Part shown: positions 28,528 to 53,801 of the stretch, one piece after another
How positions within the stretch are numbered: the first letter of the stretch is position 1
Layout of the letters: every line of letters starts with the position of its first letter
Assembly: GCF_044647545.1 (NCBI RefSeq)
Contig: NZ_CP172818.1
Length of the DNA: 64,000 nucleotides
Direction: 5' to 3' (one strand)
From: Escherichia coli
GTDB taxonomy: Bacteria > Pseudomonadota > Gammaproteobacteria > Enterobacterales > Enterobacteriaceae
Made by a program: the position numbers and the translations under genes
Notes under the pieces: generated by a model
Databases searched by the model: none
The model's input: the letters and a program-made list of their open reading frames with translations, nothing else
Told to the model about the DNA's origin: nothing

Positions 28528-29391
28528 TTAAATGCTTTTACCAAAAGTATTGCATTGTGCCGGATCGCCACTGTCGAAACCACGTTTAAACCAGCTGTAG
28601 CGTTGCTGAGAAGTGCCATGTGTGAAACTGTCTGGTACTACTCGCCCCTGACTTTGCTGTTGTAAACGGTCATCGCCGATGGCCTGCGCCGCGTTCAGCG
28701 CCTCTTCCAGATCGCCGGTTTCCAGAACACCTTGCTGCTGCATACTATGCCCCCAGACACCGGCAAAACAGTCGGCCTGGAGTTCCATACGCACAGATAA
28801 GCGGTTCACTTCCGCCTGCGTCGCGTTTTGTTGCAGTTGACGAACTTTCGGCTCGATGCCTAACAGTTTCTGCACATGATGACCGACTTCATGGGCGATA
28901 ACGTACCCCTGGGCAAAATCGCCATCCGCGCCAAGTTTGTCTTTCATGTCATCATAGAAGGAGAGATCGATATAAACCGTGCCATCCGCCGGGCAATAGA
29001 ACGGTCCCATAATGGATTGGCCCGCCCCGCAGCCGGTGCGCGTCATTCCACGGTACATGACCAGCTTCGGTTGCTGATAGGTTTTACCCATCTTCTCGAA
29101 TTGCTGTCCCCAGGTGTCTTCCGTGGTTGCCAAAATCACCGAAGTGAATTTTGCGGCTTCGTCTTCATTAGGACTAATTGACCGTGTTGATTGCTGTTGG
29201 GAAACCGGCTGTCCGGTCATCAACCCGGTTAAATCAACGCCATAGTAGCCTGCAACCAGCACGACTATCAGTAAAATCAGCCCGCCTTTACCGCTTGGCA
29301 GGCGAAAACCTGGACCGCCCATTGACGGACCGCCGGAGCTATTGCGCCTGTCTTCAACATTGTCACTTTCACGTCGCCCTTGCCAACGCAT
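28528..29391 (-). CDS. ypfJ: putative zinc metalloprotease YpfJ
   Basis: 287-aa ORF with HEVGH zinc-binding motif and N-terminal TM segment. Confidence 0.9.
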
Positions 29392-29558: not shown

Positions 29559-30272
29559 TCAGTCCAGCTGTACACCCAAGCGGCGGGCAACGGCTTCATA
29601 GGCTTCGATCAGGCCACCGAGGCTCTGGCGGAAACGGTCTTTGTCCATTTTCTCCAGCGTTTCTTTGTCCCACAGACGGCTGCCGTCCGGGGAGAACTCA
29701 TCGCCCAGAACTACTTCGCCTTTGTACAGACCAAACTCCAGCTTGAAGTCGACCAGAATGAGACCAGCATCATCGAACAGTTTTTTCAGCACGTCGTTCG
29801 CTTTGTAGGTCAGCTCTTTCATACGCGCCAGGTTCTCTTTGCTCACCCAGCCAAAGGTTTCGCAGTAAGATTCGTTGACCATCGGATCGTGCATGGCGTC
29901 GTTTTTCAGGAACAGATCGAACAGTGGCGGGTTCAGCTCAATACCTTCTTCGATTCCAAGACGTTTCACCAGAGAGCCAGCAGCACGGTTACGCACGACA
30001 CACTCAACCGGCACCATATCCAGCTTTTTCACCAGACATTCGGTATCGGAGAGCAGACGCTCCATTTGAGTCGGGATACCCGCTTCAGCCAGTTTGCTCA
30101 TAATGAAGTAGTTGAACTTGTTGTTCACCATACCTTTGCGATCAAACTGCTCAATGCGCGCGCCATCCCCTGCTGACGTATCATTGCGGAATTCGAGCAC
30201 CAACAGGTCCGGGTTTTCCGTGCTGTATACGGTTTTCGCTTTACCACGATACAACTCAGCTTGCTTTTGCAT
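29559..30272 (-). CDS. purC: SAICAR synthetase PurC
   Basis: ATG at 30272 gives 237 aa [18 protein letters not shown]... Confidence 0.93.
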
Positions 30273-30335
30273 CTTTATCACTCCTGGGTGTGAATTAACG
30301 TTTTAAAATCTATTGCTGTCTGGTGTGCCGGATGT

Positions 30336-30374
<39 letters not shown>

Positions 30375-30425
30375 CCGACAAACAAATTTCGTGCGAATTA
30401 CCGCTAAAATCGCGTTTTTCTGCCG

Positions 30426-30441
30426 ACGCACACGTTTGCGT
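30426..30441. promoter_or_regulatory. PurR operator (pur box) upstream of purC
   Basis: acgcacacgtttgcgt versus palindromic consensus ACGCAAACGTTTGCGT (15/16). Confidence 0.6.
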
Positions 30442-30484
30442 ATCATATCAGAAAAAAGGGCCGGATGACTCCAGCCCTGTATTT

Positions 30485-31519
30485 TTACTTGCTAAACGCA
30501 GCCTGGAAGACAGCTACCAGCGCGTCGTTCTGACTCTGAGTCAGAGTATGACCTTTCGGATCGATGAACTGTAGGCTGCTGCGGTTATCTAAATCGCCAA
30601 CCTGCAGTTTATAGTCACCGGATGCCAGACCTGGATCGCTCGCGCCCAGTTCGTGCCATTCGCTGTCAGACAGCGGCTTGTAAGTTACGGCCATGTTGCC
30701 CTGCGAACGGGTGCTGTCGGTCACTTTCATGCCCACTTTTTCCAGCGCAGCTGGCAGACGTTGCCAAACCACATTGAACGGCCCGCGTACGACCAGCATT
30801 GGTAAACCGGTGTCATCAGCTGCACTTTGTACGTCCATAGTGGTGGAGGCACGATTTTGCGCAGCGTTCGCGGCGTCAGTGGCAGATTTATCCAGACCGG
30901 CGGAAATAACGTTCATCATCTCCGTGCTGTAACGCTGCATGGAAGCCGCGTCTGCAACCGGTTTGCCCGCCTGTTCCAGGTTCAGCAGTTTAACCGTAAC
31001 CGCCTGCTGATAACCCTGCGGCTTAACAGAGATTTGATAACGACCACGATACTGCTCGTCTTCGTCCAGACGGTTCCATTGTACCCAATCGGTGGTCAGT
31101 GTCTGACCAGCATCATCACGTTGGGTGATGGTGTAGTTTTTCGCCTGCAGCACGCTAACCACCTGCGGCCACAGAGTATTGCCACGACCATTTTCCACCA
31201 GCAATGAAGCGGTATCGCCCGTGAACTGGGTACGCGCGCCAGAAACCAGTGCCAGCGGCTGGGCTGGTGGACGAATGTCCAGCGCCTTACCGACAGCACC
31301 ACTACCGTTGGTCACCGGGATTGCATAATCACCGGAGGTCACCGGCAAAATCATTCCAGCCGGGGCATGAAGCTCCGCAAGCGGTGCCGCTTCCAGGTAG
31401 GCTTCATCACCACTGACCTGACGCTTATAGCGTGAGTCAGAACTACAGGCAGCGAGTAATAAAACAAGCGAAACACCCGCAACCTTTGCCAGGCGCGACT
31501 TTTGAACAGAGTAAGCCAT
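30485..31519 (-). CDS. bamC: outer-membrane lipoprotein BamC (formerly nlpB)
   Basis: 344 aa from ATG at 31519; lipobox LLAAC. Confidence 0.93.
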
Positions 31520-47520: not shown

Positions 47521-48582
47521 TTATTCTTGCGCGATTTGCCCATCGGGCCAGGCGTGAATCACGGCTTTGATCAGCGTCGCCAATGGAATGGCGAAGAATA
47601 CGCCCCAGAATCCCCACAAACCACCGAAGATCACCACCGATAAAATAATCACCAGCGGATGCAGGTTAACCGCTTCGGAGAACAACACCGGCACTAGCAG
47701 GTTGCCGTCCAGCGCCTGAATGATCAGATACACCGCGAAGCAGCTCCAGAATTCCGTGCCAGCACCAAACTGGAATAGCGCCACGCCAATCACCGGAATG
47801 GTCACCACAAATGCGCCAATGTACGGAATAAGAACCGAGAAGCCGACCAGCACCGCCAGCAGCAGCGAATAGTTCAGCCCGAAGAGTAAGAACCCCAGCC
47901 AGGTGGCGATCCCCACCACGATCATCTCCAGCACTTTGCCGCGGATATAGTTGGTGATTTGTTGATTCATCTCCTTCCACACCTGTCCTGCCAGTCCGCG
48001 GTTACGCGGTAGCACCCGACGAACGGCGTTCAGCATCTGCTCTTTGTCTTTCAGCAGGAAGAAGACCATCAATGGCACCAGCACCAGATAGACAGCTATG
48101 GTGAGCAAACCGACCAGCGAGGCGAGGGAAATTTTCACCACCGAATCGCCCATGGTCAGCATCCGACTGCGCATATTTTCGGCCATTGCATCAATAATGC
48201 CCGCGTCCATTAACGCCGGATAGCGGCGCGGCAACGTGGCGGCAAAGTCAGAAAGCTTATTGAGCATCCCCGGCATATCGCGAATTAAGTAGATGCCCTG
48301 CTGCCAGGCGATAGGCAATACCACGAACGCCATCAGTAGCAATATACCGACGAAAACCACCAATACAATCGACGTCGCCCAGCGGCGGGAGCAGCCAATA
48401 GATTGCAGGCGCACGGTTGGCCATTCCAGCAAATAGGCCAGCACAATAGCCACCAGCAACGGAGCAAGCAGGCCACTAAAGAAAAAGATAATGCCAAATC
48501 CGGCAACTAAAATAACCAGCAAGGCAATCGCTTCCGGGTCGCTAAAACGGCGGCGATACCATTGCATCAACATTTCGAGCAT
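47521..48582 (-). CDS. perM: AI-2E family permease PerM (formerly yfgO)
   Basis: 353-aa polytopic membrane ORF. Confidence 0.9.
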   Translation of the reverse strand: MLEMLMQWYRRRFSDPEAIALLVILVAGFGIIFFFSGLLAPLLVAIVLAYLLEWPTVRLQSIGCSRRWATSIVLVVFVGILLLMAFVVLPIAWQQGIYLIRDMPGMLNKLSDFAATLPRRYPALMDAGIIDAMAENMRSRMLTMGDSVVKISLASLVGLLTIAVYLVLVPLMVFFLLKDKEQMLNAVRRVLPRNRGLAGQVWKEMNQQITNYIRGKVLEMIVVGIATWLGFLLFGLNYSLLLAVLVGFSVLIPYIGAFVVTIPVIGVALFQFGAGTEFWSCFAVYLIIQALDGNLLVPVLFSEAVNLHPLVIILSVVIFGGLWGFWGVFFAIPLATLIKAVIHAWPDGQIAQE

Positions 48583-51539: not shown

Positions 51540-52829
51540 TTATTTGTCTGTTATATCCGCGTCTTCTGCGTCCAGCACCACTTCTTCAGGGCGCAGCATA
51601 CTAATCAGTTTGAAGATCAAACTTAAGCCGATACCGACGATGGTCGCCAGCGCCATACCTTTCAGCTCCGCCGCGCCAATGTTTACCTTCGCGCCACTGA
51701 CGCCGATGATCAAAATAACGGAAGTCAGGATCAGGTTCTGTGCTTTGTTGTAATCCACTTTCGATTCGATCAACACACGAATACCGGAAGCACCGATGAC
51801 ACCGTAAAGCAGCAGCGAAACGCCGCCCATCACCGGCAATGGAATCATCTGGATAGCAGCAGCCAGTTTACCGACGCAGGAAAGCAGGATAGCGAAAATC
51901 GCCGCCCCGCCGATAACCCAGGTACTGTAAACACGGGTGATCGCCATCACGCCAATGTTTTCTCCGTAAGTGGTGTTTGGCGTGGAGCCAAAGAAGCCGG
52001 AGATCACGGTCGACAAGCCGTTAGCAAACATCGAACGGTGCAGACCTGGATCGCGCAGCAGATCTTTTTTGACGATATTAGCCGTTACCACCAGGTGCCC
52101 TACGTGTTCGGCAATAACCACTAACGCCGCTGGCAGAATAGTCAGAATGGCAAACCACTCGAAGCGCGGCGTATAGAGGGTCGGCAGCGCAAACCAGTGA
52201 GCATTAATAATCGGCGTGGTATCGACAATTCCCATTGCGAAAGAGAGCGCGTAGCCCACCAGCACGCCAATTAAAATCGGGATAATTGCCAGGAAACCAC
52301 GAAACAGCACGGAACCTAAAACCGTGACTGCCAAGGTGGTAATGGAGATGATGATGGTTTTGGAGTCTGGCGTTTGCCCTTCAGCCGGGAGTAAACCTGC
52401 CATACCGGCAGCTACGCCCGCCAGCTCCAGACCGATGACGGCAACGATTGCGCCCATTGCCGCAGGTGGAAACAGCACGTCCAGCCAGCCGGTCCCCGCT
52501 TTCTTCACGATAAAAGAAACCAGGCAGAACAGCACGCCGCACATAATAAAGCCGCCCAGCGCGACTTCATACCCTAACGGCAACAGTAACAATACCGGTG
52601 AAATAAAGGCAAAGCTGGAACCAAGATAAGCCGGGATTTTCCCTTTACAGATGAAGAGATACAGCAGCGTTCCTATACCGTTAAATAACAGTACAGTCGC
52701 CGGGTTAATATGAAATAAGACGGGCACCAGGACGGTTGCACCAAACATGGCGAACAAATGTTGCAAACTAAGCGGGATTGTCTGTAAAAGTGGCGGTCTT
52801 TCACTCACCCCGATAGCACGGCGCGTCAT
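51540..52829 (-). CDS. uraA: uracil:H+ symporter UraA
   Basis: ATG at 52829 gives 429 aa [16 protein letters not shown]...; NCS2 family. Confidence 0.92.
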
Positions 52830-53785: not shown

Positions 53786-53801
53786 TCGCAAACGTTTGCT
53801 T
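53786..53801. promoter_or_regulatory. PurR operator (pur box) upstream of purMN
   Basis: tcgcaaacgtttgctt, core GCAAACGTTTGC perfect; about 65 bp upstream of purM start. Confidence 0.65.

What the first reader, a model, noticed from the sequence alone, without database searches (positions are those of the whole stretch)
30426..30441. PurR operator upstream of purC
acgcacacgtttgcgt matches the palindromic pur box at 15 of 16 positions, in the purC upstream region.
Basis: partly seen in the sequence, partly recalled or inferred. Interest (0 to 1): 0.25.

Follow-up and report, generated by a model that had tools for sequence, protein, structure and literature searches.

The report
Known PurR operator at purC promoter
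This 16-base palindrome is the well-documented docking site where the E. coli purine repressor PurR sits on the start of the purC gene and shuts it off when purines are plentiful, so it is real but ordinary.

Summary
Window 30426-30441 reads ACGCACACGTTTGCGT (ACGCAAACGTGTGCGT on the purC sense strand), 15 of 16 to the pur-box palindrome. It is the only match with one mismatch or fewer in 64 kb and the top hit of a PurR matrix built without it.

The window is E. coli chromosome: dapA-bamC-purC on the minus strand, with purC ATG at 30272.

- Cho et al. 2011 list this exact 16-mer as the PurR motif under the purC ChIP-chip peak.
- IPOD-HR (PLoS Biol 2021) shows occupancy there that is lost in a purR deletion or in minimal medium.

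What I add is anatomy:
- A published TSS (Kim et al. 2012) maps to window 30435, inside the box, so the operator spans -6 to +10.
- The box directly abuts an extended -10 (TGaTATGAT).
- The -35 position falls in the bamC terminator hairpin.
- This is classic steric repression of initiation.

The same 16-mer, including its one non-consensus base, is identical upstream of purC in 63 of 114 Enterobacterales species sampled. It usually lies about 67 bp from the ATG. Escherichia carries a 103-bp REP-containing insertion in the 5' UTR, which moves it to 169 bp.

Verdict: already known, low interest.

The parts
30426..30441 (-). PurR operator (pur box) of purC. Sense-strand sequence ACGCAAACGTGTGCGT. 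It spans -6 to +10 relative to the published purC TSS.
   Evidence: Sequence. 15/16 to consensus and unique in the window. Top PWM hit at 18.3 bits. Identical to the published ChIP-chip motif. Identical in 63 of 114 Enterobacterales purC loci.
30435..30435 (-). purC transcription start site (published; mapped onto window coordinates).
   Evidence: Kim et al. 2012 TSS table: NC_000913 2,595,803, minus strand, purC, 5' UTR 163 nt, upstream sequence ending ...CTGATATGATACGCAAA. Offset from the pur box coordinates gives window 30435, and 30435-30272 = 163.
30442..30450 (-). Extended -10 promoter element TGaTATGAT. The hexamer TATGAT is at 30447-30442 (-12 to -7) and TG at 30450-30449. It directly abuts the operator.
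   Evidence: Read from the sequence relative to the published TSS. Inference, not tested. The two-hexamer consensus scan found no promoter because there is no -35 match.
30451..30478 (-). bamC intrinsic terminator: 9-bp stem hairpin at 30478-30457 plus a T-run at 30456-30451. It occupies the position where a -35 element of purC would lie.
   Evidence: Terminator scan. The hairpin plus T-run is retained in all 15 genera displayed.
30273..30434 (-). purC 5' UTR (163 nt counting the TSS). It contains an Escherichia-specific 103-bp insertion with a REP-type palindrome (30336-30382), flanked by imperfect 13-nt direct repeats (30288-30300 and 30391-30403).
   Evidence: Repeats. Comparison with Citrobacter, Klebsiella and Enterobacter, where the box lies 65-68 bp from the ATG. 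RNA fold -48.6 kcal/mol, z -3.1. The 2.2-kb query hit a median of 7 places per E. coli genome, consistent with a dispersed repeat.
29559..30272 (-). purC coding sequence (SAICAR synthetase, 237 aa), the regulated gene.
   Evidence: ORF list. 100% identical DNA is annotated purC, WP_001295467.1, in RefSeq E. coli genomes.
30485..31519 (-). bamC coding sequence, the upstream neighbour whose terminator adjoins the purC promoter.

Best explanation
The 16-bp imperfect palindrome at 30426-30441 is the operator through which PurR represses purC. PurR is the LacI-family purine repressor, a dimer that binds DNA when it carries hypoxanthine or guanine as corepressor.

The operator spans -6 to +10 of the purC promoter. 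It starts immediately after an extended -10 element (TGaTATGAT) and contains the transcription start. Bound PurR therefore occupies the DNA that RNA polymerase must bind and melt, and blocks initiation. When purines are scarce, PurR releases and purC is transcribed.

What is shown:
- the sequence match and its statistical uniqueness;
- the gene identities;
- conservation of the site across species;
- published in vivo PurR occupancy that depends on purR and on purine supply;
- a published TSS inside the box.

What is inferred:
- that TGaTATGAT is the -10 element actually used;
- that repression works by steric exclusion of RNA polymerase rather than at a later step.
For: Sequence and statistics:
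- 15/16 match, the only site with 1 mismatch or fewer in 64 kb.
- Top score of a leave-out PurR matrix, above all 30 shuffles.
- The two other published PurR ChIP motifs in this window (purMN at 53786-53801, yfgO/bepA at 48522-48537) are recovered by the same scans, so the matrix works.

Gene identity:
- The neighbouring gene is purC.

Published occupancy:
- Cho et al. 2011 Table 1 lists exactly ACGCACACGTTTGCGT for the purC peak, which is stronger with adenine. The same paper says the IMP-pathway genes are repressed in wild type but not in the purR deletion.
- IPOD-HR Fig 1C shows occupancy at the purC PurR site that is lost in the purR deletion or in minimal medium, with RNAP occupancy rising in the deletion.

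TSS:
- The TSS at MG1655 2,595,803 lies within the box.

Conservation:
- Of 114 purC loci from different Enterobacterales species, 63 carry the identical 16-mer in the same orientation and 27 carry another box of 17 bits or more.
- Flanking columns are only about 60-65% conserved across 61 distinct contexts.
- E. coli strains differ 2, 3 and 7 nt past the box but not within it.
- Erwiniaceae have replaced the box with AGGTAAACGATTGCGT. This scores higher for PurR (24.4 bits) but is a poorer palindrome, which is what a protein site would show and a hairpin would not.
Against: Nothing in the data contradicts it. Caveats:
- The binding and expression evidence comes from papers, not from anything measured here.
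- The TSS rests on one high-throughput data set (24 reads). I could not read the original primer-extension paper (Tiedeman 1990) or the footprinting paper (He 1990), and two other TSS supplements did not contain purC.
- 23 of 114 species show no box of 12 bits or more within 320 bp. These include Pectobacterium, Brenneria, Winslowiella and a few isolates named as Enterobacter, Klebsiella or Cedecea. The arrangement is therefore not universal in the order.
- The conservation figure for the box is 100% by construction, because those loci were selected on the exact match. The unbiased numbers are those.
Confidence: 0.97

Rival explanations
1. The palindrome is a chance match to the pur-box consensus with no regulatory role.
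For: Short palindromes do occur by chance. A PurR-like 16-mer of 17.6 bits also lies inside the uraA coding region (52438-52453) with no reported ChIP signal, so high scores alone do not prove function.
Against: A 1-mismatch match is expected about 7e-4 times per window. The site scores above all shuffles. It is identical in 63 species while its flanks vary. Published ChIP-chip and IPOD-HR show PurR-dependent occupancy.
Confidence: 0.01
2. The inverted repeat acts as a nucleic-acid hairpin. It could be part of the bamC terminator, or a 5'-UTR or attenuator structure in RNA, rather than a protein-binding site.
For: It is a palindrome only 10 nt downstream of the bamC terminator T-run, on the transcribed strand of any bamC read-through.
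Against: As RNA it folds at only -5 kcal/mol, no better than shuffles (z 0.24; 118 of 200 shuffles fold as well). The purC transcript starts at box position 7, so the left arm is not in the mRNA. The Erwiniaceae replacement box keeps the PurR score but loses most of the self-complementarity. The bamC terminator is a separate, complete hairpin plus T-run.
Confidence: 0.01
3. The site is an operator, but it is bound mainly by another LacI/GalR-family repressor with a similar half-site (for example CytR or RbsR) rather than PurR.
For: LacI-family operators share a central CG and similar half-sites. I did not test specificity against other family members' matrices.
Against: The ChIP used tagged PurR, and the IPOD-HR occupancy disappears specifically in the purR deletion. 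The gene is a purine-biosynthesis gene. The site fits a matrix made only of PurR ChIP motifs.
Confidence: 0.01

Closest known systems
E. coli PurR-purC operator as catalogued in the literature (He et al. 1990; Tiedeman et al. 1990; Meng et al. 1990; Cho et al. 2011 ChIP-chip Table 1)
   Same: It is the same object. The 16-mer is identical to the published purC motif ACGCACACGTTTGCGT at MG1655 2,595,794-2,595,809, with the same neighbouring genes.
   Different: Nothing differs in the operator. This window is a non-K-12 E. coli strain with SNPs near the box but not in it: one in the loop of the bamC terminator, and two or three a few bases downstream of the box.
purMN pur box (TCGCAAACGTTTGCTT), also in this window at 53786-53801
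   Same: A 16-bp PurR operator in front of a purine-biosynthesis operon, about 65-80 bp from the start codon. That is the same spacing the purC box has in non-Escherichia Enterobacteriaceae.
   Different: Two mismatches at the outer positions instead of one inner mismatch. There is no REP insertion between box and gene. Its position relative to its own TSS was not examined here.
purB and purR internal operators (roadblock-type PurR sites)
   Same: Same repressor and same 16-bp motif (for the roadblock statement).
   Different: Those lie far downstream of the TSS, in the coding or leader region, and block elongation. The purC box overlaps the TSS and -10 flank, so it should block initiation.
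carAB P1 PUR box (centred at -128.5)
   Same: Same repressor and motif.
   Different: At carAB the box is far upstream, and PurR alone cannot repress because it needs PepA-mediated remodelling. At purC the box is on the core promoter, and no helper is needed in principle.

Membership tests
PurR operator (pur box) of the E. coli purine regulon | 16-bp imperfect palindrome fitting ACGCAAACGTTTGCGT (ChIP consensus ACGNAAACGTTTGCNT) with a central CG step | tested here: met
   15/16 match with the central CG present. 18.3 bits on a matrix built from 25 other PurR ChIP motifs. That is within the training-site range of 11.6-24.9 and above all 30 shuffled windows.
PurR operator (pur box) of the E. 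coli purine regulon | Located at or overlapping the promoter (or early transcribed region) of a purine/nucleotide-metabolism gene | tested here: met
   The gene downstream is purC. The box covers -6 to +10 of the published TSS and abuts a TGaTATGAT extended -10.
PurR operator (pur box) of the E. coli purine regulon | Occupied by PurR in vivo, in a corepressor (purine)-dependent way | not testable with these tools
   Published. ChIP-chip peak over purC with this motif, log2 enrichment 2.08 with adenine against 1.52 without (PMC3159470). IPOD-HR occupancy is lost in the purR deletion and in minimal medium (PMC8282354).
PurR operator (pur box) of the E. coli purine regulon | Expression of the target gene is derepressed in a purR mutant and repressed by purines | not testable with these tools
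   Published. The IMP-pathway genes, purC among the PurR-repressed set, are repressed by adenine in wild type but not in the purR deletion (PMC3159470). RNAP occupancy at purC is higher in the deletion. The Meng et al. 1990 title names purC as purR-regulated.
PurR operator (pur box) of the E. coli purine regulon | Evolutionary retention of the site in front of the orthologous gene in relatives that have PurR (phylogenetic footprint) | tested here: met
   Of 114 species, 63 have the identical 16-mer and 27 have another box of 17 bits or more upstream of purC. Flanks are about 60-65% conserved. No variation in the box among three divergent E. coli strains.
PurR operator (pur box) of the E. coli purine regulon | Direct binding of purified PurR plus hypoxanthine/guanine in vitro (gel shift or footprint) | not testable with these tools
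   Reported in He et al. 1990 (J Bacteriol 172:4555), according to the citing papers. The paper itself is not held in the library, so I could not verify the details.

The most novel reading that the evidence does not exclude
The single non-consensus base (G at sense-strand position 11, which is +5 of the transcript) may not be neutral decay. It is invariant in 63 species from more than 20 genera, while sequence immediately outside the box varies. It may therefore be selected. One reason could be that the box doubles as the initially transcribed region of an extended -10 promoter that lacks a -35. Another could be that it tunes PurR affinity at what is one of the most strongly occupied PurR sites without added adenine: a ChIP value of 1.52, tied for highest in Cho's table. 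A second, weaker possibility is that the box also acts as a roadblock to read-through from dapA-bamC.
Probability: 0.3. Interest if true: 0.2.

Novelty: already known. Interest (0 to 1): 0.05.

Why it matters
It matters little as a discovery. PurR control of purC has been textbook knowledge since 1990 and has been re-confirmed genome-wide. The value here is as a positive control. A reader working from raw sequence found a true operator. A simple matrix scan then recovered all three published PurR ChIP motifs in this window. The comparative data give a tidy picture of the locus: the operator sits on the transcription start, the promoter is pressed against the bamC terminator, and the 5' UTR is a hot spot for REP insertions in Escherichia, Salmonella, Kluyvera and Klebsiella pneumoniae.

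Tried and rejected
- Consensus sigma-70 scan of 30200-30600 found no promoter. The reason is that the promoter has no -35 match, and I relied instead on the published TSS.
- I tried to read the primary papers: Tiedeman 1990 (PMC526926), He 1990 (PMC213288) and Thomason 2015 (PMC4288677). None is held.
- I looked for a second TSS data set. The Mendoza-Vargas 2009 and Ettwiller 2016 supplements have no purC entry or matching coordinate in the text held. The supplements of Cho 2011 are not held, so I have no purC-specific fold-change.
- A search for 'purCp' gave nothing relevant to E. coli promoter mapping.
- The RNA/DNA hairpin reading of the palindrome is rejected.
- For loci without a box in 320 bp, I looked up to 1.5 kb upstream for a box displaced by a larger insertion. 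Nothing above 10.2 bits turned up apart from the two cases already seen (Shimwellia 13.0, Erwinia sp. OLFS4 18.0), so those lineages seem to lack it.
- I considered whether the uraA-internal PurR-like site explains the reported adenine repression of uraA. It is not in the ChIP list. The iModulon paper attributes the pyrimidine-type PurR-2 module to UTP-sensitive control. I have not seen that module's gene list, so whether it includes uraA is my assumption. I left this as a passing note.

Full report
**1. The observation**

The 16 bases at window 30426-30441 are ACGCACACGTTTGCGT on the plus strand. On the minus strand they read ACGCAAACGTGTGCGT. Against the perfect pur-box palindrome ACGCAAACGTTTGCGT this is one mismatch.

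A mismatch-tolerant search of both strands of the whole window finds no other site with one mismatch or fewer. With up to three mismatches there are three sites, against 0.54 expected from dinucleotide-preserving shuffles. A one-mismatch match is expected about 7e-4 times in 64 kb (my arithmetic: 64000 x 49 / 4^16).

I built a log-odds matrix from 25 PurR motifs in Table 1 of Cho et al. 2011 (PMC3159470). I deliberately left out the three motifs that lie in this window. On that matrix the site scores 18.3 bits. That is the best score in the window and higher than the maximum of any of 30 shuffled windows (mean of maxima 14.6, highest 16.8).

**2. Where it is**

The window is E. coli chromosome. 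A 2.2-kb stretch around the site is 100% identical to several complete E. coli genomes and is present in 5425 of 5426. RefSeq annotation of the identical DNA gives dapA, bamC and purC in tandem on the minus strand.

- purC is window 29559-30272, with its ATG at 30272.
- bamC ends at 30485.
- The box therefore lies in the 212-bp bamC-purC spacer, with its sense-strand 5' base 169 bp from the purC ATG.
- Immediately upstream (sense direction) is the bamC intrinsic terminator: a 9-bp stem at 30478-30457 followed by a T-run.

**3. What is published about exactly this sequence**

Cho et al. 2011 list ACGCACACGTTTGCGT at MG1655 2,595,794-2,595,809 as the PurR motif under the purC ChIP-chip peak. Enrichment is 2.08 with adenine and 1.52 without. 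Prior genetic and biochemical work on purC is cited there (Tiedeman 1990; Meng 1990; He 1990). The same paper states that the IMP-pathway genes are repressed by adenine in wild type but not in the purR deletion.

The IPOD-HR paper (PMC8282354) uses this very promoter as its showcase. Protein occupancy at the PurR site upstream of purC is seen in rich medium. It is lost in the purR deletion and in minimal medium, while RNA polymerase occupancy rises in the deletion.

The two other PurR ChIP motifs expected in this stretch of genome are also present in the window:
- purMN TCGCAAACGTTTGCTT at 53786-53801;
- yfgO/yfgC CCGGAAGCGATTGCCT at 48522-48537.

Both are recovered by my scans. The purC-to-purMN spacing is 23,360 bp in the window against 23,346 bp in MG1655.

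**4. Anatomy and mechanism**

The TSS table of Kim et al. 2012 (PMC3415461, supplement) gives a purC start at NC_000913 2,595,803 on the minus strand. The 5' UTR is 163 nt and the upstream sequence ends ...CCCTTTTTTCTGATATGATACGCAAA. Mapped through the box coordinates, this is window 30435, and 30435-30272 = 163 as listed.

- The start is the seventh base of the box, so the operator covers -6 to +10.
- The hexamer TATGAT (30447-30442) is at -12 to -7 and is preceded by TG one base upstream (30450-30449). This makes an extended -10.
- The -35 position falls in the bamC terminator stem and matches TTGACA at 0-2 of 6 positions. That explains why the two-hexamer consensus scan found nothing.

The inference is that PurR, bound with hypoxanthine or guanine, occupies the DNA that RNA polymerase has to contact and melt, and so blocks initiation. 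This fits the general statement that PurR sites mostly overlap promoters. It differs from the roadblock sites in purB and purR and from the far-upstream carAB site.

Three things are inferred rather than shown here: the identity of the -10, steric exclusion as the step affected, and the use of a single TSS.

**5. Comparative evidence**

I used a degenerate DNA pattern for the conserved PurC motif [10 protein letters not shown] to pull 120 purC loci from one-genome-per-species contigs, all Enterobacterales. In 114 of them at least 320 bp upstream of the ATG was available.

| Best PurR-matrix hit within 320 bp upstream of purC | Species | Notes |
|---|---|---|
| Identical ACGCAAACGTGTGCGT, same orientation | 63 | Citrobacter, Enterobacter, Klebsiella, Raoultella, Kosakonia, Kluyvera, Buttiauxella, Cedecea, Salmonella, Escherichia and others |
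| Another box of 17 bits or more | 27 | Mostly the Erwiniaceae forms AGGTAAACGATTGCGT and AAGTAAACGATTGCGT, about 80 bp from the ATG |
| Intermediate, 12-17 bits | 2 | CCGCAAACGTGTGCGT (Shimwellia) and ATGCACTCGTTGCCGT |
| Nothing at 12 bits or more | 22 by subtraction (one search prints 23) | Pectobacterium, Brenneria, Winslowiella and a few others; still nothing within 1.5 kb |

Across 61 distinct sequence contexts that carry the identical box, the flanking 45 and 30 bp have mean majority-base fractions of 0.65 and 0.60. The box itself is 1.00 there by construction, because those loci were selected on the exact match. The unbiased counts are those in the table above.

Only two near-variants of the box were seen: CCGCAAACGTGTGCGT in Shimwellia, and the flipped form ACGCACACGTTTGCGT in one Enterobacter sp. 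So the box is essentially either intact or replaced or absent.

Within E. coli, three divergent strains differ at positions 2, 3 and 7 past the box, in the terminator loop and in the 5' UTR, but not in the box or the -10. A 44-nt query centred on the box is found at 95% identity or better in 5409 of 5426 complete genomes (one more at 90-95%).

The Erwiniaceae replacement box scores higher for PurR (24.4 bits) while being a much poorer palindrome. That is what a protein-recognition site predicts and a hairpin does not.

**6. Rivals**

- **Chance.** Excluded by the statistics, the conservation and the in vivo data.
- **A nucleic-acid hairpin.** As RNA the palindrome folds at -5 kcal/mol with z 0.24, and 118 of 200 shuffles fold as well. 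The left arm is upstream of the TSS. The bamC terminator is a separate, complete element.
- **Another LacI-family regulator.** The ChIP was on PurR, and the IPOD-HR signal is purR-dependent.

**7. The long spacer**

In most Enterobacteriaceae the box is 65-68 bp from the ATG. In E. coli and E. albertii it is 168-169 bp. The difference is a 103-bp insertion in the 5' UTR.

- It is bounded by imperfect 13-nt direct repeats: 30288-30300 GTGTGAATTAACG and 30391-30403 GTGCGAATTACCG.
- It contains a REP-type palindrome at 30336-30382.
- The UTR folds at -48.6 kcal/mol (z -3.1), dominated by that palindrome.

Other, unrelated insertions occupy the same spot in S. enterica arizonae (box at 142 bp), Kluyvera (130 bp) and K. 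pneumoniae (187 bp). This explains why the operator looks oddly far from the gene in E. coli. It does not change the regulatory logic.

**8. Comparison with the known, novelty and score**

This is not merely like the purC PurR operator. It is that operator, base for base.

- Features I could compute are all met: motif, position at the purC promoter, phylogenetic footprint.
- Features that need experiments are met in the literature I could read: in vivo occupancy and purR/purine dependence.
- In vitro binding is reported only in papers I could not open.

Novelty: already known. Interest: 0.05.

The only mildly open point is why the one non-consensus base is invariant across so many genera. It could reflect promoter constraint at +5 or affinity tuning. 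I rate that at about 0.3 probability of reflecting real selection beyond PurR recognition, and of modest interest even if true.

Noticed in passing
window 52438-52453 (+): ACGGCAACGATTGCGC scores 17.6 bits on the PurR matrix, second best in the window and above the purMN box. It lies inside the uraA coding region, 376-391 nt after the start codon, and is also present in a K-12-like genome. It is not in the Cho 2011 ChIP-chip list. That paper does report uraA down 17.6-fold with adenine and changed about 2-fold by purR deletion. It could be a purB-like roadblock site or a chance match. The score only just exceeds the shuffle maximum of 16.8.
   Followed up: partly
window 53786-53801 and 48522-48537: The published purMN pur box (TCGCAAACGTTTGCTT, in the upp-purM intergenic region) and the published yfgO/yfgC (bepA) PurR ChIP motif (CCGGAAGCGATTGCCT) are both present in this window. 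They serve as internal positive controls.
   Followed up: yes
window 30288-30403: A 103-bp insertion in the purC 5' UTR, specific to Escherichia (E. coli and E. albertii). It carries a REP-type palindrome (30336-30382) and is flanked by imperfect 13-nt direct repeats that look like a duplicated target (cgTTAATTCaCAC). Different insertions sit at the same spot in Salmonella arizonae, Kluyvera and K. pneumoniae, so this UTR position seems to be an insertion hot spot.
   Followed up: partly
L001 179-2992 (E. coli FDAARGOS_497, region equivalent to window ~28530-29390): In that strain the neighbouring ypfJ gene (neutral zinc metallopeptidase) is split by a group II intron encoding an ltrA reverse transcriptase/maturase. 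In the window ypfJ is intact at 28528-29391.
   Followed up: no
L013, L028, L055, L096 (Pectobacterium); L017, L071, L083, L103 (Brenneria); L082, L086 (Winslowiella); L006, L010, L043, L059, L064 and others: 23 of 114 Enterobacterales species have no PurR-like box of 12 bits or more within 320 bp upstream of purC, and none within 1.5 kb. Several Pectobacterium share a different conserved palindrome-like 16-mer, GGGCATACGCTAACCC, about 200-212 bp upstream. purC regulation may differ in these lineages.
   Followed up: partly
L008 (Enterobacter sp. BIGb0383), 100 bp upstream of purC ATG: The box is present in the flipped form ACGCACACGTTTGCGT on the purC sense strand, so the non-consensus base sits in the other half-site. 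This is the only such case among 114 loci.
   Followed up: no
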